DNA from: a virus
Length of the DNA stretch: 64,000 bases
Reading direction: 5' to 3' (one strand)
Virus record (IMG/VR): IMGVR_UViG_3300012920_000022
Location: 71,756-135,755 of that record
The translations under genes were made by a program, and so were the position numbers. The notes under the pieces are model-generated. The model had not been told where the DNA came from, made no database searches, and saw only the letters and a program-made list of their open reading frames with translations. Positions 1-64,000 of this stretch are shown here, piece by piece; the first letter of the stretch is position 1, and every line of letters starts with the position of its first letter.

Positions 1-1
1 G

Positions 2-745
2 GTGAAATATCCAATATATTGTTTAGAATATGGTGTTGAATTATATTATTTTAAATCCATTAATGAACTCACCATAGAAAACTGGTTTTTTGGTGAATTA
101 CCAGATTCTTTATTTAATCTAACTAATCTAACTAGTTTGAACATATTTAATACTCATATAACCAAAATTCCCGATAATATCGGGAATTTAACCAATTTAT
201 GCACATTAAATATAAAATATAACAAGAGATTGACCAAATTACCAGAATCTATTGGTAATTTGGTCAATCTCACAGATTTATGTTTATCTGATAATGGTAT
301 TAATAGTCTACCAGAATCTATTGGTAAACTTGGTAAATTGCACACATTAAATACAACAAATAATCAATTATCCCATGGACTTCCAGAAACAATTGGCAAT
401 TTGAAGAATCTTCAAATTCTTCAAATTGCCAATTGTTTCTTAACTAAATTACCGAAATCTATTATTAAATTGCACAATTTAACAAAATTATATATTAATA
501 ATAATTCTATTACTAAATTACCGGAATCAATAGGTGAATTAAAAAGCTTAACTCATATAATTTTTAATGATAATTATATTACCAAATTACCGAAATCAAT
601 GGGTGATCTGGATAATTTGATTTGTTTGGATATTTCTAATAACCAAATATCAAATAATGTTAGTAAATTAAATGAAATGAAGAATTTGCGTATTTTTAAT
701 AACAACTATAATAATAGTGAATTACATGAAATTCACTTTAAATGA
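2..745 (+). CDS. Leucine-rich repeat protein (LRR-1), 5' end outside the window
   Basis: 23-aa repeats LxxLxLxxNxLxxLPESIGxL; starts inside the family N-cap (YPIYCLEYGVE). Confidence 0.93.
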   Translation: MKYPIYCLEYGVELYYFKSINELTIENWFFGELPDSLFNLTNLTSLNIFNTHITKIPDNIGNLTNLCTLNIKYNKRLTKLPESIGNLVNLTDLCLSDNGINSLPESIGKLGKLHTLNTTNNQLSHGLPETIGNLKNLQILQIANCFLTKLPKSIIKLHNLTKLYINNNSITKLPESIGELKSLTHIIFNDNYITKLPKSMGDLDNLICLDISNNQISNNVSKLNEMKNLRIFNNNYNNSELHEIHFK

Positions 746-1370
746 AATAAAGAAAATGGACTATAATAATTTAGATGATCATATAGATGGTTTAGTTAAC
801 ATATTAGATTCTATAGAACCCAATGGATCTGTATACTTATTAACTGGTTCTAATGGATCTGGGAAATCACTCATAAGATCACAGCTACCACACTATATAT
901 CTAGAAAATTAAATGTTGATGCTGGTAGTTGTACTGCTTCAACTAGCATGGCTTTGAGAACTGGTTCTAACCCAGAAATGGGTGGTCTTAGTGGAATGAT
1001 GAGGGATACTGGATGGTTGCCCACAAGTATGGAAACTTTTGATAATATAATTGGTTTATTGAAAGTTAAAGATAGATTTTTAACTATAGATGAGCCTGAA
1101 ATAGGCATGGGGGAAGAAACTATTATGTCATTGTGTAGCATGCTCAATGATAAACTCAAAGAATTATCATCAGAAGAATTTAAGGGTTGTATGATAATAA
1201 CACATAACAGATATCTAGTCGAAAATTTGGATTATGACTATTTTTTAAATACTGATGGTTATTCCAGCAAAAACGATTGGTTAAATAGAAAAATCATCCC
1301 TATTAACATCGATGAATTGATGGATAATAAACTATCAAAAGCAATAAACAACAGGACAAATAAAAAATAG
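717..1370 (+). CDS. Small ABC/AAA-type P-loop ATPase
   Basis: Walker A GSNGSGKS, Walker B FLTIDEPE, H-loop IITHNR. Confidence 0.8.
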   Translation: MNYMKFTLNEIKKMDYNNLDDHIDGLVNILDSIEPNGSVYLLTGSNGSGKSLIRSQLPHYISRKLNVDAGSCTASTSMALRTGSNPEMGGLSGMMRDTGWLPTSMETFDNIIGLLKVKDRFLTIDEPEIGMGEETIMSLCSMLNDKLKELSSEEFKGCMIITHNRYLVENLDYDYFLNTDGYSSKNDWLNRKIIPINIDELMDNKLSKAINNRTNKK

Positions 1371-1371
1371 G

Positions 1372-1890
1372 ATGTCAACTATAATATACGATGCTTACAA
1401 ATATGATGGTAATTTACAATCACTTATGGATGAATTACCCAGAGTAAGAATTGATTTCCACAAACACATAGAATCTAATCTTAAATCTTTATTTAATGAT
1501 GAGATAATGGATGCAGATAATGCATATCAATCAGTTAAAAATATGGCAAAATCTGATATGAGATGGATTCAAGAATATGAAGATACATGTATACAAGTAT
1601 ATGTGTGTGAAGACATAATATACATACAATTATTTGGAATGATAAAAAGCATACACATACATGATGATTTAATAAAGAAATTATATGATTTTTCCTTTGA
1701 TGACAGATGTATGGATGATAGTGAAAAAGATTGGTGGAAGAGTAGAGAAAAAATCTGGGGGAAAATATTTCATAAATCACCGATACCATTATATGCTGGA
1801 CTATCATATAGTATCGGTGATTCCAATATTATGTTACTTGACACAATAAGGAAAATAAGAGGTGAAAAGCCAATATATGGATACGGATAA
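1372..1890 (+). CDS. Hypothetical protein
   Basis: 172-aa ORF tightly packed in the operon. Confidence 0.7.
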   Translation: MSTIIYDAYKYDGNLQSLMDELPRVRIDFHKHIESNLKSLFNDEIMDADNAYQSVKNMAKSDMRWIQEYEDTCIQVYVCEDIIYIQLFGMIKSIHIHDDLIKKLYDFSFDDRCMDDSEKDWWKSREKIWGKIFHKSPIPLYAGLSYSIGDSNIMLLDTIRKIRGEKPIYGYG

Positions 1891-2959
1891 TAAAATATTA
1901 CAATTATTAAGCAGTGATGATGATGCCAATATTAAATTAGCATTTAGCATTGTTAAACCATTACAGTATGGGGATTCTGTGGCTGTAAAGTTAAGAGAGT
2001 TTCCATATTATTGTTTGGAGCATGATCTGGAGATGGATTTTATGGTTGAATTATGTAAATTAACCATAAAACATGTAAAATTCAATAAATTACCAGAATC
2101 TATTGGTAAATTGACTAAATTGACTAAATTGACTATTGAGGATACTGGGATATCAAAACTACCAGAATCTATTGGTAAACTAATTAATCTTAAAACGCTG
2201 TCTATTATTGGTCATACCATAACCAAACTACCAGATGCCATAGGTGATTTGACCAATTTAAGATGGTTAAATATTGAGAGAGGTACATTATCAGAACTAC
2301 CAGATGCCATAGGTAATCTGGAAAATTTGGATATATTATCTATTGTTAAAAATAATTTGAATTCATTACCAGAATCTATTGGTAAACTCAATATGTTGAC
2401 TATGTTGACTATTAAGTATACTGGGGTATCAAAACTACCGGAATCCATAAGCAATCTGGTAAACTTAAAGCAATTAACCATTGTGGATAGTATGTTATTA
2501 AGTTTACCAGATTGCATAGCTAAATTAGTAAACCTAGACACATTATCTATTCCTGGTAATTTTATTACTAAATTACCAAAATCAATAGGTAATCTAAATA
2601 AACTCACCAGGGTTGATATTAGTGGAAATCAGTTAGTGGAACTACCAGAATCAATAGGTAATTTGATAAACTTAATTTCATTGTATTTACATGACAATAC
2701 CATAGCTAGATTACCAGAATCTATTGTAAAATTACGACAATTGTTGTGTTTAGATTTATCAAATAATAACTTATTTGATTTACCCAAAGAATTTACCAGT
2801 ATGGTTGGTTTACAAGAATTATCTTTATTTAATAATCAACTTATGGATCTCCCACCAACCATATCAAATATGGTTGGTTTAACAACTATAAATGTACGTA
2901 GTAATAATTTTAATAAAATACCCGTATTTTATCATACTCCCATAACTATTTTAACATGA
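1877..2959 (+). CDS. LRR protein (LRR-2)
   Basis: N-cap ILQLLSSDDDANIKLAF...FPYYCLEH followed by about 12 LRRs; ATG at 1877 preferred to the track start at 1862. Confidence 0.93.
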   Translation: MDTDNKILQLLSSDDDANIKLAFSIVKPLQYGDSVAVKLREFPYYCLEHDLEMDFMVELCKLTIKHVKFNKLPESIGKLTKLTKLTIEDTGISKLPESIGKLINLKTLSIIGHTITKLPDAIGDLTNLRWLNIERGTLSELPDAIGNLENLDILSIVKNNLNSLPESIGKLNMLTMLTIKYTGVSKLPESISNLVNLKQLTIVDSMLLSLPDCIAKLVNLDTLSIPGNFITKLPKSIGNLNKLTRVDISGNQLVELPESIGNLINLISLYLHDNTIARLPESIVKLRQLLCLDLSNNNLFDLPKEFTSMVGLQELSLFNNQLMDLPPTISNMVGLTTINVRSNNFNKIPVFYHTPITILT

Positions 2960-3813
2960 TGGATGATAATATATTAATATTATTAGATGGTGATGATATT
3001 AATATTAGATTAGCTTTTACCATGGTTAAATCATTGAATTATGATGAAGTTGTTTCCGATAGATTAAGAGAATTCCCGTTATATTGTTTGGAATATGGTG
3101 TGGAAATGGATTATATGATCAATTTAAAGAGTTTAAAAATTGATCATATGGGGATTGATAAATTACCAGATTCTATCGGGGAATTAAAAAATCTTATATC
3201 TCTGGATATAAGTCACAACCATCTCATGTACCTACCAAATAGTATTGGGGAATTAAAAAATCTTGAACAATTATGGTTAAATAATAATTTTTTAGTTGAA
3301 TTACCTGAATCGATCAAGAATCTATGTAAACTCAACATGTTGAGTTTACATGATAATGAATTTAACCATTTTCCCGAATCAATATGCAAATTACAAAATA
3401 TTCAGTGGATAGATTGTGAAAATAATCTAATATATGAATTACCAGATTCTATCGGGGAATTAAAGAATTTGAGAGAACTAAGTTTTAATCATAATTATAT
3501 TAGCAAGTTGCCAGATTCTATCGGGGAATTAAAGAATCTAAGATCTTTGGATGTTGGTTTTAATAAAATGATTGAATTGCCTGATACTATAGGAGGATTA
3601 TGTAAACTATTTAGATTATCTGTTTGTGATAACTATATATCTGAATTACCAAAATCCATATCAAAACTAAAACATATTAGTTCCATAGATATAAATGATA
3701 ATCCTATCGTTCACATTCCAGAATTTATATATGAATTAGAAAGCTTAAATTATTTACATCATAATGATATAACCATCAATTTAAAAACTTCCGAAACATG
3801 GAAAATAAGGTAA
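2956..3813 (+). CDS. LRR protein (LRR-3)
   Basis: N-cap DDINIRLAF...FPLYCLEYGVE; LPDSIGELKNL repeats; ATGA overlap with LRR-2. Confidence 0.93.
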   Translation: MMDDNILILLDGDDINIRLAFTMVKSLNYDEVVSDRLREFPLYCLEYGVEMDYMINLKSLKIDHMGIDKLPDSIGELKNLISLDISHNHLMYLPNSIGELKNLEQLWLNNNFLVELPESIKNLCKLNMLSLHDNEFNHFPESICKLQNIQWIDCENNLIYELPDSIGELKNLRELSFNHNYISKLPDSIGELKNLRSLDVGFNKMIELPDTIGGLCKLFRLSVCDNYISELPKSISKLKHISSIDINDNPIVHIPEFIYELESLNYLHHNDITINLKTSETWKIR

Positions 3814-4889
3814 TTAGTTTAATAAATAGTGATGATATTACTAATATAGATTTAGCATTTACACTAATTAAATCTATATATGCAAATGATAGTTATAGTG
3901 AAACAATATTATCTGAAATCAAATCATATCCTACATATTGTTTAAAATATGGTATAGCATTATCTTATATTAATAGATTGGATATATCCAATCTTGATGA
4001 ATTTAATCTATTAATCTATCATATATCTGAATTAACATCACTATATTATTTAAATATATATGATATAAATTTAAATGAATTACCCTCTGAAATTGGTGAT
4101 CTAATAGAATTGCGTAGGTTGGATTTGAATAATAACAACCTACGCACATTACCTGATTCTATTGGGAATTTACATAATCTATGCTGGTTATCCATAAACT
4201 ATAATAGATTAGATATTTTCCCAGATTGCATTACTAAGTTATATAATTTAAGATCATTGTTTATAACTGGTAATGGATTGTATGAATTACCAGAATCAAT
4301 AGGCAAACTGAAGAATTTATCCAGTTTACATGCTGGTAACAATTATTTTATTTCAGGCTTACCAGAATCAATAGGAGAATTAAAGAAATTACGTAATATT
4401 AGCTTTGTGAATAGTAGGCTTAACACATTACCTGATTCCATAGGTGAATTGGAAAACTTACAGACTGCTAATTTATTCTATAATCTTATCCCTAGAGTAC
4501 CAGAATCAATAGGAGAATTAAAGAAATTACAAGAACTGAATCTTAACAATAATGAAATTAGTGAATTACCAGAATCAATAGGTAAATTGATAAATCTAGA
4601 ATTATTATATCTTAATTCAAATGAGCTACAAGATATACCATCATGTGTTATTGAATTAAAAAATTTAAAAGAATTACACATTGATAATAATTATTTGTAT
4701 GTAATTCCTGAATCAATGGGTGAATTAACTAATTTACAAGAGTTAAGTTTGGCTAAAAACGAGCTACAGGATCTCCCATCATCAATCAATCAACTAATGA
4801 AATTAAGAGAATTGAATATATCTGAAAATTATATTGATGATTTACCGTGGTATCTATATGACATGAATGATCTTATAGTTATTAGATGA
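3798..4889 (+). CDS. LRR protein (LRR-4)
   Basis: N-cap LINSDDITNIDLAF...YPTYCLKYG; about 12 LRRs. Confidence 0.93.
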   Translation: MENKVISLINSDDITNIDLAFTLIKSIYANDSYSETILSEIKSYPTYCLKYGIALSYINRLDISNLDEFNLLIYHISELTSLYYLNIYDINLNELPSEIGDLIELRRLDLNNNNLRTLPDSIGNLHNLCWLSINYNRLDIFPDCITKLYNLRSLFITGNGLYELPESIGKLKNLSSLHAGNNYFISGLPESIGELKKLRNISFVNSRLNTLPDSIGELENLQTANLFYNLIPRVPESIGELKKLQELNLNNNEISELPESIGKLINLELLYLNSNELQDIPSCVIELKNLKELHIDNNYLYVIPESMGELTNLQELSLAKNELQDLPSSINQLMKLRELNISENYIDDLPWYLYDMNDLIVIR

Positions 4890-15537: not shown

Positions 15538-16218
15538 ATGAAAAACGAAGAAATATTGAAAATATTGAAACATATAAATGATCCAATTTCCCTCGATAGT
15601 CTTTTTGCGACTATTAAAAAAGATCGCATTAAATATAATGGTGAAGTTGCTAAAATTATTAAGGAAAAATTTATATTTTACTGTATAAAATATAAATTAG
15701 AAATTAAACACTTGAAAAAGATTACTGAACTGAATCTATCAGATACTATTGGTGATCATTTTGAATTACCACCATCAATAGATGTTATGGTTAATTTAAA
15801 GAAGTTGGTTATAAATAATACCAGGATAGTGAGTTTACCAGAATCGATGTGTAAATTGAAAAAATTAGAAAGATTATCTTTAAACCGCAACCAAATTATA
15901 AATTTACCAAATTCCATTGGTAAATTGAAAAATCTGGAGAGACTATCATTAAATGACAACCAAATTATAAGTTTACCAAATTCCATTGGTAAACTAAAAA
16001 AATTAAAGTACTTGTCTTTGCGTAATAATAGATTATCAAAATTGCCATCCACTATCAATAAATTAACTAATTTAATGGTAATGTATCTAGATAATAATGA
16101 ATTGGAAGAATTGCCATTTGAGGACATTGGACTTACAGAACTAACACTTAATGGTAATATCATCGACACCAGCAGAGAAATTAAATGGATCTATGGTTGG
16201 GAAAAACCATGGATATGA
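15538..16218 (+). CDS. LRR protein (LRR-5)
   Basis: LERLSLNxNQIxxLPNSIGKLK repeats; variant N-cap with FIFYCIKY. Confidence 0.92.
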   Translation: MKNEEILKILKHINDPISLDSLFATIKKDRIKYNGEVAKIIKEKFIFYCIKYKLEIKHLKKITELNLSDTIGDHFELPPSIDVMVNLKKLVINNTRIVSLPESMCKLKKLERLSLNRNQIINLPNSIGKLKNLERLSLNDNQIISLPNSIGKLKKLKYLSLRNNRLSKLPSTINKLTNLMVMYLDNNELEELPFEDIGLTELTLNGNIIDTSREIKWIYGWEKPWI

Positions 16219-16269
16219 TCTGTTTTAATTTCTAGTAACCCAATTATATACCAATAAATTTATGATATT

Positions 16270-16927
16270 ATGACAAGTAAAGAAATAGTAGATATACTAA
16301 CTACCATAAATGATCCCATTATTATTGATAGTCTTTTTGCGACTATTAAATATAAAAATATTAAATATAATGGTAAGGTCAGAAATATGATTAGAAAACA
16401 TTTCATATACTATTGTATTAAATATGAACTAGAGGTTAAATATCTGAGAAAAATTACTATTTTAAACCTATCAGGTAGTATAGGTTTACATCATGAATTG
16501 CCTTCACCCATAGATGTTATGGTTAATCTAGAAAAGTTAGTTATACAAAATACAAAGATGGTTACCTTACCAGAATCAATTGGTAATCTTAAAAGATTAA
16601 AATCACTATGTCTAAATAATAATAGGCTGGTTACCTTACCAGAATCAATTGGTAATCTTAAAAGACTGAACTTTTTATATTTGAATAATAATCAACTTAC
16701 AGAATTACCAAATACGATTGGTAAGCTAAAAATATATGAGCTATATTTGAATAATAATCAACTTACAGAATTGCCAAATACCATCAGTAATTTAACCAAT
16801 TTTAAATGTATTACATTTGAACAACAATCAGCTCATAGATTTACCATCAACTGATAATATGGAGTGGTTGGTTGAATTACTGCTAGATAATAATATAATG
16901 GATAATAGTAGACAATTTAAATTATGA
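16270..16927 (+). pseudogene. LRR-6, paralog of LRR-5 with a +1 frameshift near the 3' end
   Basis: Removing one T from the run at 16800-16803 restores NLNVLHLNNNQLIDLP...LLLDNNIMDNSRQFKL ending at TGA 16925-16927, parallel to the LRR-5 C-terminus; as written the ORF ends at 16854. Confidence 0.75.
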
Positions 16928-16978
16928 TGACTATTTTCTAGTATTATCCGATAGAATAATACTAAACATTTTTGATAC

Positions 16979-17536
16979 ATGACTGAAAAATTACATGATC
17001 TATTAGTTGCTGATGATATTAAATATGTACATTTAGCATTTGTCATGATTAAAGGAAATCCACATCTTATAACAAAAGATATTATACCATATTTGAAAAT
17101 ATATCCATGGATGTGTCTAGAATATGGTATATTGATGGAGGACTATAAAAAGGAATCTTCTATATATTTAACTAATTCAAATAATAGTTGTTTACCCGAT
17201 AGATTATTTGATCTTACAAACATAACTGAACTATATTTATATCATAATCAGATTAGTGAATTACCAAAATCATTGTTGAAATTACATAAATTACATAAAT
17301 TATCATTGAGTGGTAATTTAATATATGATCTACCAAATTGGATAATCGATCTAAAATATCTTAAAGTATTAGATATATCCAATAATCCTCTCCCAGATAT
17401 TCCACAAGTTTTATTTAATAACCATAATTTAACAGAAATTATTTTACCTAAAGGTTTGAGATACAGTTTCCATGTACATGTTATTGACAAACCATCAATT
17501 AGAACAAAATTAGAACAAATTTTTAAATTTACTTAA
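16979..17536 (+). CDS. LRR protein (LRR-7), 185 aa
   Basis: N-cap LLVADDIKYVHLAF...YPWMCLEYG plus about 4 LRRs. Confidence 0.9.
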   Translation: MTEKLHDLLVADDIKYVHLAFVMIKGNPHLITKDIIPYLKIYPWMCLEYGILMEDYKKESSIYLTNSNNSCLPDRLFDLTNITELYLYHNQISELPKSLLKLHKLHKLSLSGNLIYDLPNWIIDLKYLKVLDISNNPLPDIPQVLFNNHNLTEIILPKGLRYSFHVHVIDKPSIRTKLEQIFKFT

Positions 17537-17537
17537 T

Positions 17538-18095
17538 ATGAAGGAAGAACACAATATATTATCACTGATAAAATCTGGTATAGAATCAAATATTAGATTG
17601 GCTTTTACATTAATTAAAAATGTTGGTATTATTTCGGAAGATATAGTGTCATATGTGAGAAATTATCCATGGTTGTGTTTAGAATATGACGTAGAAATTA
17701 ATCATTTAATGAAACAATCCAGCCTATATTTGGTGAATACTGACAACACATGTGTACCTGATGGTCTAAGTTCATTAGTAAATTTGAAAGAAATAAATTT
17801 GTTTGATAATAAAATAACAGAATTACCAGAATTTATAATGAAACTAATCAATCTATCAACCATTAATGTTTCAAATAATTGTCTAAATAAAATACCCGAA
17901 TGGATAGTAAAACTCCCAAATTTAAGAAATTTGGACATATACTGTAATCCCTTATATGATATGCCACTATTTCTATTACATGACAATAATATAAGTAATA
18001 TAACTATGTCATTTGATTGTAAATATCATTTCTATCCATATGCGCATGATAATCCACATATAAAACATAATCTAAAGAAATTCAACTTTTTCTAA
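17538..18095 (+). CDS. LRR protein (LRR-8), 185 aa
   Basis: N-cap LIKSGIESNIRLAF...YPWLCLEY; colinear with LRR-7. Confidence 0.9.
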   Translation: MKEEHNILSLIKSGIESNIRLAFTLIKNVGIISEDIVSYVRNYPWLCLEYDVEINHLMKQSSLYLVNTDNTCVPDGLSSLVNLKEINLFDNKITELPEFIMKLINLSTINVSNNCLNKIPEWIVKLPNLRNLDIYCNPLYDMPLFLLHDNNISNITMSFDCKYHFYPYAHDNPHIKHNLKKFNFF

Positions 18096-18652
18096 TGGAA
18101 GATTTTACTGATAAACTACTGGAATTATTAAAATCCGATGATGAATCTAATGTAAAAACTGCTCTTAATATAATGCAAGGTGATATACCATGTGATATAC
18201 AAAGATTATCACCATATTTGAATCATTATCCGGATCTTTGCTTAGATTATAGTATAACGGATTGGATGTTAAATCGTAAAGAAATATTCATAGTAAACAC
18301 CAAACTTGAAAAATTACATCAAAATATAGGTAAGTTAATAAATCTTAAAAGACTGTATTTATACAATAATAATTTATAAGAATTACCAAATGAATTATCC
18401 GAACTAGTAAATCTTGAGAGATTAGATTTACATGGTAATAAATTAACTCATCTATCAGGATGGATTATGAATATGCCTAATTTGAAATACCTGGATATAA
18501 GTGAAAACCCATTATTAGATGTGCCAACTGCGATATTTAGGGATCATAAACTAAAGGAAGTTATATTACCACTTAGATTAAAAATAAGTTTTGGTATCCA
18601 TGCATACAGACACGGTAAATTTAAATCAAAAACGCTATATAGATTTTTGTAA
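18095..18652 (+). pseudogene. LRR-9 with in-frame TAA
   Basis: TAA at 18377-18379 interrupts NNNL*ELPNELSELVNLERLDLHGN; read-through gives 558 nt, the same length as LRR-7 and LRR-8. Confidence 0.85.
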
Positions 18653-54500: not shown

Positions 54501-55055
54501 ATCTAAATCACAAAAGTCTTCTATGGATCTGAATTTTTTATTATTAAATACATCATGATTACCACCAAATGGATGACATTCTCTTATAGGATCATGGAAT
54601 AATCCAATGTATGTATATTCATTGGATTTTAACGGTATATCAACTAATTTTTTATCTGGATGATGATAAACTACCCAGGCTATATTATCATCATGGTATA
54701 TGCCAGTCTTATTATAATAAATTATATTATCACCAACAGCTTTCTTTATTGATGATACAACAGTTTCAACAGAGTCTACTCTATTTGAAGATGATAGATT
54801 TATATCGTGATTCCCAACTGTTATTATAATTTTAGATATTTTAGACAGATTGAAAAGGAATTCAGAAGCCATAACAATAGCCTCATTAGATATATTGGTA
54901 TAATTATGAAAAAGGTCACCAACAATACATATCCTATCGGGTAATGTAGTTTTGGCAACCGATATGATATGATTCAGTGAATTCCTATATTGTTGATGGT
55001 ATTCAGGAGAATTTTTTATATGTATATCAGCAATATGTAATATTTTATTGATCAT
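51561..55055 (-). CDS. Fused Mre11-Rad50 (SbcD-SbcC; gp47-gp46) nuclease-ATPase
   Basis: ADIH, VGDLFH, GNHD, GDIH; Walker A GENQSGKS; hook CPTC; signature GSGKE; Walker B LLIDE. Confidence 0.92.
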   Translation of the reverse strand: MINKILHIADIHIKNSPEYHQQYRNSLNHIISVAKTTLPDRICIVGDLFHNYTNISNEAIVMASEFLFNLSKISKIIITVGNHDINLSSSNRVDSVETVVSSIKKAVGDNIIYYNKTGIYHDDNIAWVVYHHPDKKLVDIPLKSNEYTYIGLFHDPIRECHPFGGNHDVFNNKKFRSIEDFCDLDFLLMGDIHKFQTFDKSSKLFAAYSSSPICQNFGEIDSFHGVLLWDLPKNIIEQIPIDHEIRFVQYNMFENNFIEQINGISLDSDFLYRIKVKLHIKNHDLFKSIKNQIIFEFNDRFKNIKDLVIKPYFSESVDKFDKYSLIDTELHVNKYLSDMNLSDKMTAAIKNMDHEISTLVTDNNEYIDWNILSITIFNFRSYPDREITIDFKDGIIKIDGENQSGKSNIYNAITYLLYGKTYLSKKVKHQDLKFINNNTESDKCYVKGTFIINNDEIIISRETTIKRNKNNEIKSISTKCSENQDDMIKYFGDLSEFMNSCFINSDNLNHVLSMDNRIFKDRLISDFGLHIFERKHSEAKKLKNQYISDNGLIKIDESKHREKISELSSKKAKIIDDITFLEKSIETNKTNKSNLELEKNDTYLSIKELPKNLDTMDAIDNIQTKLNGKLKELNGKLKELQIKKHHILNKNIDKIISTNKTKILDINKNIKLCENKLELLNSRKKSLNDKLAIINNKLVDINQKFNNINDTNNSIDNSISEIRAEIESTNDKFNKQNQQHELHLNNLNINKSTLNQKLNGYLDIKDRLQDDRESIDNNICPTCGGDVVDDKMILSSNKEIDDNNSSINSTRCDIDEIELKISALTKSIESTNNEYVGLIKKLETKLNKLNSKLIDISDIQKDLSSLTNDQINVNNKLSNIDTEKTNLEISIVAHKENIENINSENLNLKKNIDDDIKLIDDDIKEISNKLDDIKEKISKVHLVKENISINLAQASKLIDINNEISILDNTINELNGKLSDSNIEYGKITHDISEANQTLEKYLIQRWEISIFNYYMEMMGRDGIPYIIITDILKNMQIEFDHILSDQEFNIFFDDMSLFMYNINNPDGHYSVLDGSGKERTLISLILRFLIRKYNSNFNCNILLIDEILGKLSKNSVEEFKKILKHISNGINTIFIVEHSHDIDADHVISVKKSNNLSNIEWIY

Positions 55056-55062
55056 GATTGTA

Positions 55063-55620
55063 TTATTTCTTTAATATTCTAGTTCTACCTCTACCCAACG
55101 ATGGTATGTCATATATTATATCATAGTTATCGATATTATTATTGACAATATTAATAACTCTAATATTACATAAATTTACTATGGTATCTGGTAATTTATT
55201 GATATGGTTATTATGTAGATTTAACCATCTCAATGATACTAGATCCCCAATTGAATCTGGTAAACTAGTCAATAGATTATTGCTTAAATCCAACAAAACT
55301 AGATTTTTCAATTTACCAATTGAATCTGGTAAACTAGTCAATGAACTACCAATTAATCTAAGTGATTTTAAATTTGATAATTGATGTATCGAATCAGGTA
55401 TGGTGCCAACAGGTTTATTATAAACATATATATCTTTTTCACCATCCAATAAGGTGGGTAAAAACTGTATACACATCTCATGATGCATCTTTAATTTAGA
55501 TATAACATTATTGGGTATATTATTTATACCCATGCCCAGGGTTAATTGAAATGCCAGTTCTATGTTTTCATATAAACCGGAATCTAACAAATTACCAATT
55601 TTATTTAAATTCTCTTTCAA
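55063..55620 (-). CDS. LRR protein (LRR-10)
   Basis: N-cap LLDSGLYENIELAF; LTSLPDSIG repeats. Confidence 0.9.
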   Translation of the reverse strand: MKENLNKIGNLLDSGLYENIELAFQLTLGMGINNIPNNVISKLKMHHEMCIQFLPTLLDGEKDIYVYNKPVGTIPDSIHQLSNLKSLRLIGSSLTSLPDSIGKLKNLVLLDLSNNLLTSLPDSIGDLVSLRWLNLHNNHINKLPDTIVNLCNIRVINIVNNNIDNYDIIYDIPSLGRGRTRILKK

Positions 55621-56453: not shown

Positions 56454-57923
56454 TTATAATCCCTCAAAATCAAACCCAGCATTATCATTATTGATGTCTA
56501 TTTTAGTATCATTATTGATGTTGGCATCTGTCCCATAATGATATGGAACTTCATCTATTGGATTAAAATGTTTACCAGTGGATGAAATTCTCATTCTGCT
56601 ATAGTCAACATCCATTATGGTTTTGTAATTTTTATATCCCCCACCATTTCTAGATTTTAATAATTTATAGAGATATATGTTATTTTCCTTCATGTTAGGG
56701 GTTTGCATCATACCTATAATATTATCAGTTTTAAATGCTATTCCTTTAGACTCTCCAGAATCGGCTAACGTAATATCATCTTCATCTATAGATCCCACTG
56801 GTATTTGGTGAGCAGATACCATAGCCCAATCATTTTGAACACCCACATCAAAAAAATCTCTACTATTTAATCTATGATACATGTAACTATTTTGTGGTGG
56901 CACACCATATGAATTATCCAATTCGGTAAAGTAATCTAAAATTATGATATCCCATTTTATATCCAATTTCTCTTCAAGCTGTCTAGCATATGCAGCTATA
57001 TCAAGTATGTTGGCTCTAGAAAACCTTTTCATTTTAAAATGACCCACATCTTTGTCATTATTAGACTTCATATCATTTAACCACTTATCAATGATATTTT
57101 TCATGAAATCATGATTCAATGATATTTCATCGTATTGATCCATGGATATATCAAACAAATTAGATCCACCTCGTTTAGCTATTCTATGGGTAGCCATTTC
57201 TAAACTAGGAAAAAATACATTATAACCCAATGATGATGCATTAATGGCTAGATTTATCAGTTTTATAGATTTACCAACATTAGTACCAGCATAAAACATA
57301 GTAGATGTACCTTTTTCAAATCCACCACCCAACCATTTATCTATAATAGGATATCCAGAGGGTATTAAATCATCAACAGGAGGCTGTGCATGTGTAGATG
57401 CATCATAGAAATCAACTGCATCACCATCATTTAAATCAACGCTAGATCTGGTATTTATAAGTGTTTTACACTTATTGATAACATCCCCCACATTACTAGT
57501 GGTTATGTCAGTTAATTTTTGATATTTAATTGCATCTGATAATCCAGTTATGAAATTCTTCCATTTTATCCAGGCTTCGGTTTTATCCTTAATAAAATTT
57601 TGGTCATATGATTTATAATCTTTTTCTATGATATACTTTAATGAATCTTTAAAGTTTGATATTTTTTCATCATCAGATAAATCTTGTGATATATGTACTA
57701 TAACTTTTTCCCTATTGAAATTTAAATATTCTAATGTATTTTCAATATCCATATCAATCATCCTGATAATGGGTGATCTATATGTTTCATAAAATGATTT
57801 GGATAATGAAAAAAATGCTTTTAGATAATCATTGGTAAAAAAATGGGGTTCAGAATGTTGAAATAGAATGGGGTTTTCTATAATGTATAATGCTGCAAAT
57901 CTTTCAAATCCGGCTATGTCCAT
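56454..57923 (-). CDS. gp41: Replicative DnaB-family helicase (T4 gp41-like)
   Basis: PSGY..ID..LGGG, AGTNVGKS, SLEM, IILDY, SAHQ, LKSR. Confidence 0.9.
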   Translation of the reverse strand: MDIAGFERFAALYIIENPILFQHSEPHFFTNDYLKAFFSLSKSFYETYRSPIIRMIDMDIENTLEYLNFNREKVIVHISQDLSDDEKISNFKDSLKYIIEKDYKSYDQNFIKDKTEAWIKWKNFITGLSDAIKYQKLTDITTSNVGDVINKCKTLINTRSSVDLNDGDAVDFYDASTHAQPPVDDLIPSGYPIIDKWLGGGFEKGTSTMFYAGTNVGKSIKLINLAINASSLGYNVFFPSLEMATHRIAKRGGSNLFDISMDQYDEISLNHDFMKNIIDKWLNDMKSNNDKDVGHFKMKRFSRANILDIAAYARQLEEKLDIKWDIIILDYFTELDNSYGVPPQNSYMYHRLNSRDFFDVGVQNDWAMVSAHQIPVGSIDEDDITLADSGESKGIAFKTDNIIGMMQTPNMKENNIYLYKLLKSRNGGGYKNYKTIMDVDYSRMRISSTGKHFNPIDEVPYHYGTDANINNDTKIDINNDNAGFDFEGL

Positions 57924-58174
57924 TATATATGTTGTTTAATATTGTCTGATGACATCAATAATAGCTCATCATATGAATATAATCCTCCCGATGATATATT
58001 TTTCAATATAGATGAATTTATAGTGCACTGATTATCAATTTCTTGGAGCACCTGATAACCATAATTATTATCATCTTTACTGATTGTGAAAACACAATCA
58101 GTCAATAAATTATTGACTTTTATTGATGATTTGGAGTCTATTTTTTCCACAAATAACTTTATATGTTTTCCCAT
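57923..58174 (-). CDS. Small hypothetical protein between UvsX and helicase
   Basis: 83-aa ORF at the position occupied by gp40 in T4; no sequence support for that identity. Confidence 0.55.
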   Translation of the reverse strand: MGKHIKLFVEKIDSKSSIKVNNLLTDCVFTISKDDNNYGYQVLQEIDNQCTINSSILKNISSGGLYSYDELLLMSSDNIKQHI

Positions 58175-59517
58175 ATTTCATTTTCTTCAAAATAATCAGA
58201 TTCATTAAACATAAACATATTCTTGATAACATTATCATCAAGTTCTTGTAATACCTTTTGGGTAAATACTTTCTCATTAAACATGGCTTCAAATGTAAAA
58301 GATTGGTCTAGGTGTTTGGCAACCCAAACATTTGAGTTGGGATTTGGTACGGCTATTTTTTCAGTTGGTTTATTTGGAATGGCATTGGTGACTCTATCAT
58401 CAATTATTTTTTTATTGAATGACCAACTACCATCATCAAGTTCATTCATATATCCTTTATCTTTCATCCATTCCATAGATGATTTTAATGATTTCTTTTT
58501 ATTATTAGCAACTATACTCAATAAGTCTTCATATGTTATTGATATTCCATCAAGCACATTATTGATGTTAAATGATTTTTTATCATTTAAATATATTTCA
58601 TATAAAGGATCTACCAGATCCTTTATTGATCCTTTATCAATACCGCAGTTATCCCAGCTAACATAATCATGGAGTCCTATGTATGGGTTCATACCTTTTA
58701 TATAGGATATATAGAAGCTTGTATCAACTGGTTTAGAATATCTACCTTCATATAGTAAGGATTTAACCTCTATACCTTTCCTAACATAAGATCCATTGGA
58801 GTATTCTTTATCTTGTTTTTTCTTCAATATAGTTACTATTGATGCCATATATATGGCTTTTCTACCACCACTGGGTATTGTAGTGGTATTACCAAACATA
58901 TCAGATTTATCATACGTGTGTGCAGTAAATATTATCGGTATTCCAGCCTTACCAGCCATGGGAACCATTGCTTTCATAAGGGCACCCATCTCTTTAGCTT
59001 CGGTACCCATATCAGTTTTAACCTTACCTTTATCAGTATCACTAAATACTTTTTGGGACGATAATCCACTAATAGAATCTATGGCTATTATAACCTTGGG
59101 TCTATCCTCTTTTTTAGAATTTTTTATGTCCTTGAGAAATGGTAATATCATAGCTTGAACTTCACTAATGGAATCCGGTTGGCTAATTCTCATATTATCA
59201 AAATCTATATTCTGATTTTCCAACCTTGATTTATCAGGACTGCCCTCAGTTTCAATCAACCAAACAAAATATCCCATTTTTTGGGCTTCTCTGCACATAT
59301 TCAGTAACAAATAACTTTTGCCAGTTTTAGGATCACCAGCAATACACATAGCTTTTGGTATGGGAAATCCCCTAAGTAAACTCCCAGAAATATGTGCATT
59401 AAATAAATAGTTACCAGTATGTATGTGATCTGATATTTCTATATCTTCATAATTTGATAAAAGTTCACCAGTTTTATCAAATTTTGATATTAAATCATTT
59501 ATATTAGAATATGACAT
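58159..59517 (-). CDS. uvsX: UvsX/RecA-like recombinase
   Basis: IHTGNYLFNAHISG, GDPKTGKS, IETE, IAIDSI, SGGRKAIYMAS. Confidence 0.9.
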   Translation of the reverse strand: MSYSNINDLISKFDKTGELLSNYEDIEISDHIHTGNYLFNAHISGSLLRGFPIPKAMCIAGDPKTGKSYLLLNMCREAQKMGYFVWLIETEGSPDKSRLENQNIDFDNMRISQPDSISEVQAMILPFLKDIKNSKKEDRPKVIIAIDSISGLSSQKVFSDTDKGKVKTDMGTEAKEMGALMKAMVPMAGKAGIPIIFTAHTYDKSDMFGNTTTIPSGGRKAIYMASIVTILKKKQDKEYSNGSYVRKGIEVKSLLYEGRYSKPVDTSFYISYIKGMNPYIGLHDYVSWDNCGIDKGSIKDLVDPLYEIYLNDKKSFNINNVLDGISITYEDLLSIVANNKKKSLKSSMEWMKDKGYMNELDDGSWSFNKKIIDDRVTNAIPNKPTEKIAVPNPNSNVWVAKHLDQSFTFEAMFNEKVFTQKVLQELDDNVIKNMFMFNESDYFEENEIWENI

Positions 59518-59785: not shown

Positions 59786-60964
59786 TTAGAATATTTTAGG
59801 TATATAAACAAAATTTTTATTAACCTTATCTTTACCTATGGACAACAATATTGTATTTATAGGGTCTAAAAATGTCTTATTGTACATAGAAGATAGGTTT
59901 ATTTTTGGTGCTATCTCTTTTGGAAAATCTCCATTTAACGGAAAACCAAATGGCTGATCATTGATATCGTAATACCAGCATATTTTATCACCATTGGTTA
60001 TTAATGGATATGAATTCAACAGATTATGTTTTTTTATCATGTGATTATACCTAGCAGATGCTTTAACTTGTATGGGAGTTCCAGAATTTACCTTCACCCC
60101 ATGCTGATCATCTTGTATGACATTCTTAGTATATGTGGTTATTCTTTCAGTTTTAGATATGGAGTAATAATTTAAATCATCAGCATGAAGCTTATACATA
60201 TCCTTTATAGATTTGGCTTTGGATAATATTTTCTCATGGCTAGCATTATTAATTATCAATTTAACCATATCTAACATGGAATCTCTTGAAAATTTGCTAT
60301 AAACATATTTAATAATTTCAAGACCTTTCACGGAAAATTTATCCATGAATTCATATGTTTGTTTTTTATACCATTGGCTAACCTTCACATATCTTTTTTT
60401 AGTAGCCCATAATATTTTATAACAAAATTCCTCTAATTCCAACCTAGGTTCCCCTATATCTATATCACCAGCACCCATTGCAGCGAAATATTCCCTGGAT
60501 TTATCCAGATAATAAGGATAGATGTGATAATTCCATACTTTCATGGAAAAATCTAACATATTCATATCAGTGATTGTGGAATCATATATAGTTTGCATAT
60601 CTAAAAATATGGAATCTGTATCCATATATAACACTACATCACTATCAATTGGATTATTAAACGATATATCATCATCATTCTCTATTGATGATTCCCATTC
60701 TTGACTGAAAAAATCATTTATAATTTTTTCAGTCAATTTAATTAAGCCAACTGCTGATGCGGTAACTGATTTAGCAACATCTCTCATGTAATCAACAAAA
60801 TAGGGATAACCCATAACTCCATAAACACTATTTAGAAGTATTTTTAGTGCCTGATCAGCATTTCTATGCAAAGATGATAATCTAGTTAATCTTTGGATTT
60901 CTTTTTTTATATCATCAGAATTTGTTAAATCAAGATTGGGGTCTATATGTACAAAATCTTCCAT
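59786..60964 (-). CDS. gp43: Family B DNA polymerase, C-terminal subunit (motifs B and C, thumb)
   Basis: Motif B QALKILLNSVYG, motif C YMDTDS, KKRY, VKGLE. Confidence 0.92.
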   Translation of the reverse strand: MEDFVHIDPNLDLTNSDDIKKEIQRLTRLSSLHRNADQALKILLNSVYGVMGYPYFVDYMRDVAKSVTASAVGLIKLTEKIINDFFSQEWESSIENDDDISFNNPIDSDVVLYMDTDSIFLDMQTIYDSTITDMNMLDFSMKVWNYHIYPYYLDKSREYFAAMGAGDIDIGEPRLELEEFCYKILWATKKRYVKVSQWYKKQTYEFMDKFSVKGLEIIKYVYSKFSRDSMLDMVKLIINNASHEKILSKAKSIKDMYKLHADDLNYYSISKTERITTYTKNVIQDDQHGVKVNSGTPIQVKASARYNHMIKKHNLLNSYPLITNGDKICWYYDINDQPFGFPLNGDFPKEIAPKINLSSMYNKTFLDPINTILLSIGKDKVNKNFVYIPKIF

Positions 60965-60967
60965 ATG

Positions 60968-61903
60968 CTATATTAATATTTCTTCACAATTACATAATAA
61001 TTCCAAACAATGGGCTTTATCAACAATATTATTATTGCGCAAATCAATGCGTTTCAAATTATTCAAATCACCAATGGATTCTGGTAAATGAGTTAATTGA
61101 TTATCGTTCAAATAAAGATAATCCAACTTTTTTAATTTACCAATGGATTCTGGTAAATGGGTTAATTGATTTACATTAAAATTTAACCCAATAATTTCAC
61201 TCATATTACCGATGGATTCTGGTAAATGAGTTAATTGGTTATCAAATATGCTTATTTGATAAACCTTAGTTAAATTACCAATAGATTCTGGTAAATGAGT
61301 TAACTGATTAGTGAAACATTCTATCCATTCTAAATTGGTCAATTTACCCATAGATTCTGGTAAATTGACCAATTTATTGGAACTGACTACTAACTCTTTA
61401 AGCTTTTTCAAATTACCAATAGATTCCGGTAAATGGGTTAATTGATTACGTTGAGCATCCAGTGATTCTAAATTAACCAATCTACCAATAGAATCTGGTA
61501 GATTGGTTAATTTATTTTTATGTACATGTAAACTTATTAATTTGGTTAGATTACCAATAGAATCTGGTAGACTGGTTAATTGATTAAATTGCAGATGGAG
61601 ACTAGATATGCCCCATATATAATCTCCAAAATTTGTGGGTAATTCACATATAGATTTATCACCTAAAAGCAGGTGTTTCCTATCACATAATATGCTTGGC
61701 ATATAATGAATACATATATGGGGATATAAGTCTGCAAATATGGATTTGATATTATCAGGTATCCTATCAACTGGTATACCTGTACATATTTGGAATGCTA
61801 AATGGATATTATTGATGTCATCAGATTTCAATAATTTCAGCAAACTCCTTTCTGTATATTCAGGTAATACCATATCATTCATTATCATTGATACCCAACA
61901 CAA
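60968..61903 (-). CDS. LRR protein (LRR-11)
   Basis: N-cap LLKSDDINNIHLAF...YPHICIHY; NQLTHLPESIG repeats; true start probably a few codons downstream. Confidence 0.93.
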   Translation of the reverse strand: MCWVSMIMNDMVLPEYTERSLLKLLKSDDINNIHLAFQICTGIPVDRIPDNIKSIFADLYPHICIHYMPSILCDRKHLLLGDKSICELPTNFGDYIWGISSLHLQFNQLTSLPDSIGNLTKLISLHVHKNKLTNLPDSIGRLVNLESLDAQRNQLTHLPESIGNLKKLKELVVSSNKLVNLPESMGKLTNLEWIECFTNQLTHLPESIGNLTKVYQISIFDNQLTHLPESIGNMSEIIGLNFNVNQLTHLPESIGKLKKLDYLYLNDNQLTHLPESIGDLNNLKRIDLRNNNIVDKAHCLELLCNCEEILI

Positions 61904-62708
61904 ATAGATAGGTTTCTTCTATGAAATGATAATCTTTGGGTAATTCCAAACTACATTTAAACATATGTAATCCACTGGTAGTTTTAATGATTTCAGCATC
62001 ATATCTATAATTACCCATATTACTAGTGGCTGCTTTATGTACATTAAAACCAGTGGTGATATTAGTCTTAACTCCATTATTGTGGGTTAATTTCCATAAA
62101 TCATCATTTATATCACTAAATACAACCTTGTTGTTATCAAATGACATTTTATAGACTATATTATCTTTATCCATGGAAAAATACTTTTTGATCCTAAACA
62201 AAATATTAGGATCAATAACTAACTGCCCCAGTACTTCTCCGGTGGTGATTTTATCCCACTTATCATCATCCAGGTATTTTATTAAATTAAATTCAACACC
62301 AGGAATATTGAGACTATCAGTGGAGGTATTTAAGTTTATAGAGAGACCATCATATATCCCATCACCAACGCTATTACAGTCTATGACCATTTTAGCATAT
62401 TCAGAATCAGAATATTTGTTTATAGTCTCTAACCATGCGGCAAAACTCTTCATTTTCCTAAATGGGAACTTGAGCAGCTTAAAATCATCAGGGCATTTGG
62501 TAATTTTATATATATTTTCAGAATGAGCACGAGTATATTTTACATAAGTAGTATCTATTGGAAAACTTTTACAATCTATACTATCTTTTCTAAAATTTAC
62601 TATATCAAAATCTTGGATTATATCATGTTTAGAAGATTCCTTGGTTACCCATGCATTTACTAAATGGGTATATAAATTTAGTAAATTTATTTCAAACGAT
62701 ATTTTCAT
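61875..62708 (-). CDS. Possible sliding clamp (gp45-like)
   Basis: 277 aa, alpha/beta composition, located in the replication cluster; no diagnostic motif. Confidence 0.4.
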   Translation of the reverse strand: MKISFEINLLNLYTHLVNAWVTKESSKHDIIQDFDIVNFRKDSIDCKSFPIDTTYVKYTRAHSENIYKITKCPDDFKLLKFPFRKMKSFAAWLETINKYSDSEYAKMVIDCNSVGDGIYDGLSINLNTSTDSLNIPGVEFNLIKYLDDDKWDKITTGEVLGQLVIDPNILFRIKKYFSMDKDNIVYKMSFDNNKVVFSDINDDLWKLTHNNGVKTNITTGFNVHKAATSNMGNYRYDAEIIKTTSGLHMFKCSLELPKDYHFIEETYLFVLGINDNE

Positions 62709-63797: not shown

Positions 63798-64000
63798 TTA
63801 TTTAGTGGTAGACTTGGTAGATTTTGATTTAGTGGTAGACTTGGTAGCCTTTACTGATTTAGTGGTAGACTTGGTAGCCTTTACTGGTTCAGTTGGTTCA
63901 TCCTTTACTGGTTCAGTTGGTTCATCCTTTACTGGTTCAGTTGGTTCATCCTTTACTGGTTCAGTTGGTTCATCCTTTACTGGTTCAGTTGGTTCATCCT
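63798..64000 (-). repeat. 3' end of a CDS built from tandem repeats (start outside the window)
   Basis: 24-nt unit CCTTTACTGGTTCAGTTGGTTCAT x5+ (DEPTEPVK), then KATKSTTKSV-type units; stop TAA at 63800-63798. Confidence 0.85.

What the first reader, a model, noticed from the sequence alone, without database searches (positions are those of the whole stretch)
61060..61590. LRR repeats have near-identical DNA frameworks but hypervariable binding-face codons
Seen: in LRR-11 the 69-nt units keep NQLTHLPESIG almost unchanged at DNA level (CAAT(G/A)GATTCTGGTAAATG on the plus strand), while the beta-strand positions differ in every unit: LHLQF, LHVHK, LDAQR, LVVSS, IECFT, ISIFD, LNFNV, LYLND, IDLRN. 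The TTACCAGAATC(T/A)AT(T/A)GG framework also recurs across LRR-1, -2, -4 and -6. Known: these x positions form the concave ligand-binding face. Inference: shared frameworks could act as recombination anchors for repeat shuffling within and between genes, aided by the phage UvsX, Mre11-Rad50 and resolvase, giving combinatorial diversification.
Basis: partly seen in the sequence, partly recalled or inferred. Interest (0 to 1): 0.78.

Follow-up and report, generated by a model that had tools for sequence, protein, structure and literature searches.

The report
Ordinary repeat architecture in phage LRR gene
A marine phage gene encodes a leucine-rich-repeat protein whose repeats keep one half constant and let the other half vary, which is the normal build of such proteins and shows no sign of active repeat shuffling, although the phage carries an unusually large family of these genes.

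Summary
LRR-11 (window 60968-61888, minus strand, 306 aa) holds eight clean 69-nt units (61049-61600). Their 33-nt framework (N-Q-L-T-H-L-P-E-S-I-G) is 84.5% identical at DNA level. The other 36 nt are 44.9% identical.

Most of the framework identity follows from amino-acid conservation plus AT-biased codon use, which predicts 0.72-0.76. A real excess of 8-13 points remains (0 of 2000 simulations reach it). The flanks show no excess.

"Near-identical" overstates it:
- A third of framework synonymous sites differ (pS 0.37).
- The longest exact repeat in the gene is 26 nt.

I found no support for shuffling:
- No cross-gene mosaics.
- No reverse transcriptase.
- Contig pieces from two other marine runs are identical where they cover (weak data).

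Recent whole-unit duplication does occur in a paralogue, g87 (74-nt exact repeat).

Best reading: tandem unit duplication inside the gene, purifying selection on the convex-side segment, and drift or diversification of the rest.

The context is the more unusual part. About 25 paralogues share a private helical N-domain in a roughly 182-kb jumbo phage whose capsid resembles those of Bacteroidota phages.

The parts
60968..61888 (-). LRR-11 coding sequence (306 aa, stop at 60968-60970). It overlaps the end of the upstream ORF (61875-62708) by 14 nt. It ends 3 nt before the start of the C-terminal half of the family-B DNA polymerase (59786-60964).
61679..61888 (-). N-terminal helical domain, about 70 residues with four predicted helices. 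It is shared by the paralogue family.
   Evidence: The profile of 14 paralogue N-domains (A1) matches here at E 2.4e-23. Helices 10-21, 25-36, 45-54 and 56-68 have pLDDT 85-90.
61604..61672 (-). Degenerate first unit (LLLGDKSICELPTNFGDYIWGIS), modelled with low confidence.
   Evidence: pLDDT 47-60
61049..61600 (-). Eight regular 69-nt (23-codon) LRR units, u1 to u8.
61070..61102 (-). Framework of unit 8 (codons 6-16, NQLTHLPESIG). The frameworks of units 7 to 1 lie at 61139-61171, 61208-61240, 61277-61309, 61346-61378, 61415-61447, 61484-61516 and 61553-61585.
   Evidence: Coordinates are computed from unit starts.
60971..61048 (-). Ninth unit (IDLRN...) and C-terminal cap (…LELLCNCEEILI).
   Evidence: strands 280-282 and 303-305
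1..4889 (+). Cluster of four paralogues: 1-745 (starts before the window), 1877-2959, 2956-3813 and 3798-4889.
15538..18652 (+). Cluster of four paralogues (15538-16218, 16270-16854, 16979-17536, 17538-18095) and one broken copy (18095-18379 carries the N-domain only; 18467-18652 is a C-terminal piece).
55063..55620 (-). Single paralogue (185 aa) next to the SbcCD-like gene.
   Evidence: (P0127)

Best explanation
LRR-11 is an intact gene for a soluble LRR protein of the SHOC2/Leptospira 23-residue class. It has a four-helix N-terminal cap domain, nine to ten repeats and a C-terminal cap.

It is one of about 25 paralogues of a roughly 182-kb AT-rich marine jumbo phage whose capsid protein is closest to those of phages of Bacteroidota.

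Shown:
- The array consists of 69-nt units.
- Its framework is specific to this gene.
- Neighbouring paralogues show every stage from freshly duplicated units to fully diverged ones.

Inferred:
- The array grew by tandem duplication of units inside the gene, partly in two-unit blocks.
- Purifying selection has held the 11-residue segment N-x-L-x-x-L-P-x-S-I-G, which builds the convex side and the loop.
- The other 12 codons, including the beta-strand face, were free to change and are now saturated.
- The DNA sameness of the framework is mainly a by-product of conserved residues read through a strongly AT-biased codon table. The small remainder is left over from common descent, or comes from occasional short-patch homogenisation.

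Inferred function: the protein binds a host or phage partner on its concave face. The family is a germline set of differently shaped binders that evolves by gene and unit birth and death, not by an active shuffling mechanism.
For: Fold and class. Pfam LRR hits are far above cut-off. The AlphaFold2 model has pLDDT 90.2 and pTM 0.86. The best solved matches are Leptospira LIC11098 (E 3.8e-17), LSS01692 (TM 0.68/0.70, rmsd 1.4 A over 216 columns) and SHOC2.

Codon accounting.
- Codon pairs with the same residue share the same codon in 182 of 253 framework comparisons (0.72). Expectation is 0.44 from genome codon usage and 0.58 +/- 0.03 from shuffling within the array (p 0.0005).
- In the flanks the figure is 35 of 83 (0.42) against 0.43 expected (p 0.83).
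- Expected framework DNA identity is 0.72-0.76 against 0.845 observed.

Age. Framework pS is 0.37 and pN 0.09. At x positions pN is 0.57 and pS 0.64.

Gene-specific framework.
- 8 of 8 LRR-11 units have their nearest framework neighbour in LRR-11.
- The closest paralogue has its own consensus, NNQLTTLPDSIG.
- Holding the LRR-11 units as one clade is not rejected (AU p 0.56).

Duplication series in the family.
- g87 has a 74-nt exact repeat. g108 has 38 nt, g91 34 and g100 33.
- In the array codon-shuffle test, 5 of 10 arrays had p at or below 0.05 for the framework and 5 did not.

Same build outside the phage. A non-phage metagenome homologue (P0133) repeats LPPELGQLQ eight times with varied beta-strand residues.

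Family and host hint.
- The N-domain profile hits 17 places in G000 and 9 in G001.
- The two records overlap exactly at both ends, by 88 and 108 nt.
- The N-domain family is rare, with 62 representatives among 1.84 billion proteins. It includes a Microscilla marina protein.
- The major capsid protein is 36.7% identical to that of Flavobacterium phage MaF61.
Against: - The synonymous signal is uneven. Leucine codons in the framework are TTA in 13 of 16 cases. Leucine codons in the flanks are TTA in 8 of 21 (Fisher p 0.018). Plain common descent without any homogenisation does not obviously predict this, unless flank leucines turn over through I/V/M intermediates.
- Beta-strand x positions in LRR-11 have pN 0.68 against an overall pS of 0.54. 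Positive selection rather than drift is therefore possible, but both values are near saturation.
- The unit trees have little resolution. There are 52 changes of gene label against a minimum of 13 and a shuffled mean of 68.3.
- Binding, partner and expression are untested.
- Population data are contigs only.
Confidence: 0.6

Rival explanations
1. Concerted evolution limited to the framework. Short-patch gene conversion or unequal exchange between misaligned units, started in the conserved 33 nt, keeps the frameworks of one gene alike while the flanks diverge freely. The process is passive, not a diversity generator.
For: - Excess codon sharing is confined to the framework (0.72 against 0.58, p 0.0005; flanks p 0.83).
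- The leucine-codon contrast has Fisher p 0.018.
- Each gene has its own framework consensus.
- The T9 and S14 third positions show all four combinations among units, read.
- g87 unit 6 carries the framework of units 4 and 5 and a tail like that of unit 1.
- A RecA/UvsX-like gene and an SbcCD-like gene are present.
Against: - Framework pS of 0.37 means a third of synonymous sites differ, so homogenisation, if any, is weak or old.
- The longest exact repeat in LRR-11 is 26 nt and barely exceeds the codon-shuffle null (p 0.03).
- The four-combination pattern can arise by recurrent C/T change.
- Flank leucines may simply turn over faster through I/V/M.
Confidence: 0.2
2. Frameworks serve as anchors for frequent recombination that shuffles units within and between the LRR genes, giving combinatorial diversity of binding faces in the phage population.
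For: - 17-nt and 19-nt framework motifs recur in five genes.
- Recombination genes are present.
- Recent unit duplications exist in g87, g108 and two G001 genes.
- 19 of 120 gene pairs share an exact tract longer than 95% of codon-shuffled controls.
Against: - The longest between-gene tracts lie in the N-domain (31 and 24 nt). Framework tracts are at most 23 nt.
- 0 of 8 LRR-11 variable halves have a close copy in any gene.
- Seven paralogue pairs show flat 61-73% identity with no converted blocks.
- The variable-part tree carries almost no gene signal and no cross-gene clusters (64 label changes against a shuffled 68.2 +/- 2.3).
- Pieces from two other runs are identical, including 61427-61631 inside the array.
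Confidence: 0.05
3. Targeted hypermutation of the variable codons by a diversity-generating retroelement or a similar enzyme, with the framework spared.
For: Only the contrast itself.
Against: - No reverse transcriptase (PF00078) was found in G000 or G001, which together close the map. The control rang in 3 of 14 known genomes.
- The variable codons differ at all bases and are at random expectation, not a template-like pattern.
- No variants were seen in other runs.
Confidence: 0.01

Closest known systems
Leptospira LRR proteins (LIC11098, LIC10831, LSS01692) and SHOC2 / RSU1: the 23-residue LxxLxLxxNxLxxLPxxIGxLxx class
   Same: Same repeat length and consensus. They are the best structural matches (E 3.8e-17; TM 0.68/0.70 and rmsd 1.4 A for LSS01692). 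The generic sequence relatives are SHOC2-like proteins.
   Different: LRR-11 has a private four-helix N-domain, found in only 62 representatives of 1.84 billion proteins. It is phage-encoded. No partner is known.
Plant NLR/RLP LRR gene clusters: birth and death, unequal crossing-over, diversifying selection on solvent-exposed xxLxLxx residues
   Same: A multigene family in tandem clusters with conserved scaffold residues, variable beta-strand residues, recent unit duplications and a broken copy. The plant literature was seen only as search listings and abstract starts (for example PMC3645687). The rest is recalled.
   Different: Excess non-synonymous change is not shown here. The ratio is below 1 in the two least diverged arrays, and LRR-11 is saturated. 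No sequence exchange between paralogues was detected.
Lamprey variable lymphocyte receptors: LRR cassettes assembled by a gene-conversion-like process
   Same: The abstracts of PMC11160967 and PMC3900441 describe combinatorial cassette assembly and a gene-conversion-like mechanism mediated by cytosine deaminases (abstract starts only).
   Different: LRR-11 is a complete open gene. The profile matches in G000 and G001 at E <= 0.001 lie in open frames without internal stops. No bank of silent cassettes was seen, and no variant molecules.
LRR genes in other phage records (uncultured 462-kb phage LR756500.1; Leptospira phages LE1)
   Same: Multi-copy LRR genes of the same class occur in a large phage: 23 matching places in LR756500.1, and 21 and 5 in the Leptospira phage records. 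The two LR756500.1 arrays scored also have near-identical frameworks with differences concentrated on the beta-strand x positions (pN 0.51 and 0.62 against pS 0.37 and 0.34).
   Different: LR756500.1 lacks the N-domain (0 matches), so its expansion is independent. Only 5 of 50,697 phage records match LRR-11 at all.

Membership tests
Leucine-rich repeat proteins, 23-residue SHOC2/Leptospira class | Pfam LRR models above the curated cut-off | tested here: met
   LRR_14 at 108.5 bits (cut-off 40), LRR_8 at 87.1 (27), LRR_4 at 58.5 (27)
Leucine-rich repeat proteins, 23-residue SHOC2/Leptospira class | Regular 23-residue period with LxxLxLxxNxLxxLPxxIGxLxx | tested here: met
   Eight units spaced exactly 23 residues apart.
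Leucine-rich repeat proteins, 23-residue SHOC2/Leptospira class | Curved solenoid with one short beta-strand per repeat on the concave side | tested here: met
   Predicted model with pLDDT 90.2 and strands every 23 residues. Foldseek top hits are Leptospira LRR proteins and SHOC2. This is a prediction, not a solved structure.
Leucine-rich repeat proteins, 23-residue SHOC2/Leptospira class | Binds a partner through the concave face | not testable with these tools
   No partner is known.
Phage/Bacteroidota N-domain + LRR family (defined here by profile A1) | N-terminal domain of about 65 residues, ILxLLxSxDxxNIxLAF…YPxYCLEY | tested here: met
   LRR-11 matches A1 at E 2.4e-23. It was one of the 14 sequences used to build A1, so the match is partly by construction.
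Phage/Bacteroidota N-domain + LRR family (defined here by profile A1) | C-terminal cap ending in an LPxC-hydrophobic motif, as in the non-phage homologues | tested here: inconclusive
   LRR-11 ends …LELLCNCEEILI. The non-phage homologues end …LPECTINF or …LPKCNLEL. Compared by eye only.
Somatic or population-level LRR cassette assembly (VLR-like) | Incomplete recipient gene plus a bank of silent donor cassettes | tested here: not met
   LRR-11 is an intact ORF. Every profile match in G000 and G001 is listed with 'stops inside: none'. One copy is broken into two pieces (window 18095-18652).
Somatic or population-level LRR cassette assembly (VLR-like) | Molecules with different unit order or number in one population | tested here: inconclusive
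   Only assembled contigs could be laid. Pieces from runs X2 and X3 are identical. Of the array, only 61427-61631 (X3) is covered by an identical piece.
Somatic or population-level LRR cassette assembly (VLR-like) | AID/APOBEC-type cytidine deaminase | not tested
   No search was made.
Diversity-generating retroelement | Reverse transcriptase gene | tested here: not met
   PF00078 gave 0 hits in G000 and 0 in G001. The control rang in 3 of 14 genomes.
Diversity-generating retroelement | Template/variable repeat pair differing at adenines | not tested
   No formal search was made. The variable codons differ at all bases.
Tandem-repeat arrays evolving by recent unit duplication (unequal exchange or slippage) | Near-identical whole units, variable positions included | tested here: not met
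   For LRR-11 the variable part is 0.449 identical, at the null value, and the longest exact repeat is 26 nt. The feature is met in paralogue g87, with a 74-nt exact repeat and units 4 and 5 differing at 1 of 69 nt.

The most novel reading that the evidence does not exclude
The family of about 25 LRR genes, with its private N-terminal domain, takes 9% of the 136-kb record. It could be a phage-encoded germline repertoire of binding modules aimed at variable host targets in marine Bacteroidota. It would evolve like plant resistance-gene clusters, with framework-anchored unequal exchange now and then creating new unit numbers and head-tail combinations that selection then sorts.
Probability: 0.2. 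Interest if true: 0.65.

Novelty: new member of a known kind. Interest (0 to 1): 0.35.

Why it matters
The pattern that was flagged is how LRR proteins are normally built, so on its own it changes little. What may matter is the setting.

- LRR genes are rare in phages. Only 5 of 50,697 phage records match LRR-11.
- This phage devotes about 25 genes to one LRR family with its own N-terminal domain. That domain is otherwise seen in a few unnamed metagenome proteins and in Microscilla marina.
- Three literature searches found no description of such a phage family.

If these proteins bind host factors, the family would be a tractable example of a virus keeping a diversified set of recognition modules.

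Tried and rejected
- DNA search of the region against the phage collection: no match.
- Relatives through the polymerase C-terminal half: none in viral contigs or metagenome contigs. No orthologue of LRR-11 could be compared.
- Whole-protein homologue search: 4918 generic LRR hits covering only the repeat part. This was uninformative about close kin.
- Read laying: only Logan contigs, fragmentary at low depth. The three joints listed in table 5 have short sides (25-29 letters) at 80% likeness and include matches from other LRR genes, so I did not read them as variants. Parts of the array without cover say nothing.
- Alignment A3 of N-domains from non-phage homologues was too divergent for a genome-contig scan. 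The single-protein scan gave one generic LRR gene in a Clostridia MAG, which had no regular 23-residue array to score.
- The Leptospira phage LRR gene, used as a comparator, showed no framework codon excess (0.37 against 0.45, p 0.99).
- Atlas look-up of the N-domain: only weak HEAT-like structural leads, all under the bar.
- dN/dS in LRR-11: both classes are near saturation, so the nominal ratio above 1 (0.68 against 0.54) is not interpretable.
- Unit trees of 33-69 nt have too little signal to prove or disprove strict clustering by gene.

Full report
**What is there.** The window is the right-hand 64 kb of a 135,755-bp virus record with 28% G+C.

It is a tailed phage:
- a major capsid protein at 46885-48618
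- a head protease at 45136-46872
- a tail-fibre protein at 9734-12058
- a DnaB-like helicase at 56454-57923
- a RecA/UvsX-like protein at 58159-59517
- a fused SbcD/SbcC-like nuclease at 51561-55055
- a family-B DNA polymerase in two halves, at 24735-26189 (+) and 59786-60964 (-)

The capsid protein is closest to Flavobacterium phage MaF61 (36.7% identity over 99% of the length). Next come Tenacibaculum, Chryseobacterium, Sphingomonas PAU and Prevotella Lak phages.

A second virus record, G001 (46,587 bp), overlaps both ends of this one exactly, by 88 and 108 nt. The two close into a map of about 182,146 bp. One family protein is recorded on a 182,191-bp contig. The 108-nt overlap lies in a 24-nt tandem repeat, so its length is ambiguous.

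**The gene.** LRR-11 is the minus-strand ORF 60968-61888 (306 aa). Pfam LRR models match far above cut-off. An AlphaFold2 model built on 21 family sequences has mean pLDDT 90.2 and pTM 0.86. It shows a four-helix N-terminal domain (residues 10-68), a poorly modelled linker, and a solenoid with a strand every 23 residues from 96-98 to 280-282, plus a final strand at 303-305. Foldseek places it with Leptospira LRR proteins (LIC11098 at E 3.8e-17; LSS01692 at TM 0.68/0.70 and rmsd 1.4 A), SHOC2 and RSU1. It is therefore an ordinary member of the 23-residue LxxLxLxxNxLxxLPxxIGxLxx class.

**Checking the observation.** Eight regular 69-nt units lie at 61049-61600, and TRF sees periods of 69 and 138 nt there. 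The 17-nt motif is exact nine times in five genes. Neither is expected at all in shuffled sequence.

Mean pairwise DNA identity among the eight units is 0.845 in codons 6-16 and 0.449 in the other twelve codons. Unit extraction gave 100 regex hits in 18 ORFs. For the counts I kept the 14 genes with units spaced 23 or 47 residues apart (multiples of the repeat), dropping g5, g10, g65 and g101. I also dropped the degenerate unit 0 of LRR-11, which leaves 90 units (still included it, so it had 91).

**How much of the contrast is trivial.** Redrawing every codon from the usage of the phage's non-LRR genes, with the protein kept, gives framework identity of 0.716 +/- 0.020. Shuffling synonymous codons within the array gives 0.763 +/- 0.015. 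Neither reaches 0.845 in 2000 runs. The variable part sits at expectation. So roughly 0.72-0.76 of the 0.845 follows from conserved residues read through an AT-biased codon table, and 8-13 points are a real extra.

The same result appears codon by codon. Framework pairs with the same residue share the codon in 182 of 253 cases. Expectation is 0.44 from genome usage, or 0.58 +/- 0.03 from the shuffle (p 0.0005). Flank pairs share it in 35 of 83 cases, at expectation.

The framework is not young. Its synonymous difference is 0.37 per site, against 0.64 at x positions, and the longest exact repeat in the gene is 26 nt (null mean 17.1, maximum 27).

**Is LRR-11 typical of the family?** No. Of the 14 arrays, only g87 (0.874/0.685), LRR-11 (0.845/0.449) and to a lesser degree g90 (0.713/0.491) have homogeneous frameworks. 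The rest have 0.51-0.63. In the codon shuffle, 5 of 10 arrays have framework p at or below 0.05 (LRR-11, g87, g90, g98, g108) and 5 do not.

g87 shows fresh duplication: a 74-nt exact repeat, with units 4 and 5 differing at one base. Two G001 genes look similar. The family thus spans a series from just-duplicated units to fully diverged ones, and LRR-11 lies in between.

**Tests of shuffling.**
- By framework, 8 of 8 LRR-11 units have their nearest neighbour inside LRR-11. By variable part, 0 of 8 do.
- Trees of the 90 units need 52 (whole unit), 53 (framework) and 64 (variable part) changes of gene label. The minimum is 13 and shuffled labels give about 68 +/- 2. Holding the LRR-11 units together is not rejected (AU p 0.56). 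These trees rest on 33-69 nt and are weak.
- Between genes, the longest exact tracts are 31 and 24 nt, both in the N-domain. Framework tracts reach 21-23 nt. 19 of 120 gene pairs exceed 95% of codon-shuffled controls, which fits shared ancestry.
- Seven paralogue pairs aligned at DNA level have flat profiles at 61-73% identity. The longest identical run is 36 nt.
- No reverse transcriptase is present in either record.
- Only assembled contigs could be laid. Two runs other than the likely source carry pieces identical to the window, including 61427-61631 inside the array. No credible variant was seen. This is weak evidence.

**Selection.** In LRR-11, non-synonymous difference at the beta-strand x positions is 0.68, against 0.54 synonymous overall. 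Both are near saturation, so the ratio cannot be trusted. In the two least diverged arrays of this phage the values are 0.29 against 0.42 (g87) and 0.27 against 0.33 (a G001 gene). That gives no excess. In two arrays of the unrelated huge phage LR756500.1 they are 0.51 against 0.37 and 0.62 against 0.34.

One result favours some homogenisation. Framework leucines are TTA in 13 of 16 cases and flank leucines in 8 of 21 (p 0.018). Faster turnover of the more permissive flank positions through I/V/M could also explain it.

**The family.** A profile of the N-terminal domain finds 17 places in G000 and 9 in G001, all in frames listed without internal stops. LRR-family genes take 9.2% of G000.

In 1.84 billion representative proteins the profile finds 62 at E <= 0.001. 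Several are this phage's own. The non-phage ones that I read have the same N-domain followed by LRRs. One of them is a Microscilla marina protein. A non-phage homologue, P0133, repeats LPPELGQLQ eight times with varied beta-strand residues. A gene-specific constant framework with variable strands is thus not peculiar to the phage.

Only 5 of 50,697 phage records match LRR-11. LR756500.1 has 23 matching places but lacks the N-domain.

**Literature.**
- Three searches for phage LRR families found no description of such a family.
- Plant LRR evolution and lamprey VLR assembly were seen only as listings and abstract starts. Beyond those, what I say about them is recalled.
- Supplementary files were not consulted.

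**Verdict.** Its mechanistic reading is not supported by any test I could run, though the population test was weak. The best explanation is tandem unit duplication inside the gene, strong purifying selection on the convex-side segment, and free or diversifying change elsewhere. There may be a small contribution from framework-limited homogenisation.

Noticed in passing
window 24735-26189 (+) and 59786-60964 (-): The family-B DNA polymerase is encoded as two separate genes on opposite strands, 33.6 kb apart. The N-terminal part matches phrog_2062 at E 2.4e-66. The C-terminal part matches Pfam DNA_pol_B at 9e-16. LRR-11 ends 3 nt before the start of the C-terminal half.
   Followed up: partly
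G000 ends and G001 (L016-L018) ends: The two virus records overlap exactly at both ends (88 and 108 nt) and close into a map of about 182 kb. One break lies inside an LRR gene, the other in a 24-nt tandem repeat. CheckV-type completeness values of 55% and 21% are listed for the two pieces.
   Followed up: yes
window 63800-64000: Perfect 24-nt tandem repeat (5.1 copies, 100% matches) and a 30-nt repeat (3.2 copies) inside a minus-strand ORF that runs off the window. They encode DEPTEPVK and ATKSTTKSVK repeats. The same repeat ends G001.
   Followed up: partly
window 45904-46296: An 84-nt tandem repeat (3.4-3.8 copies, 83-84% matches) lies inside the gene that matches head maturation protease families (45136-46872).
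   Followed up: no
window 18095-18652: A broken family member. One 94-aa ORF carries only the N-domain (profile E 1.1e-10). A separate 61-aa ORF resembles the C-terminal end of the neighbouring paralogues.
   Followed up: partly
window 51561-55055 (-): A single 1164-aa protein joins a metallophosphoesterase (SbcD/Mre11-like) N-terminus to an SbcC/Rad50-like body.
   Followed up: no
L020 (LR756500.1, 462-kb uncultured phage): It has 23 places matching LRR-11 but none matching the N-domain profile. In the two arrays scored, differences are concentrated on the beta-strand x positions (pN 0.51 and 0.62 against pS 0.37 and 0.34). Its capsid protein is distantly related to this phage's (28.8%).
   Followed up: partly
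P0136: A Microscilla marina protein carries the same N-domain followed by LRRs. This fits a Bacteroidota host lineage, or gene exchange with one.
   Followed up: partly
window 4930-9582 (+): A 1550-aa protein directly after the first LRR cluster and before the tail-fibre gene. Its only match is to PHROG 31887 (unknown function), over its first 137 residues.
   Followed up: no
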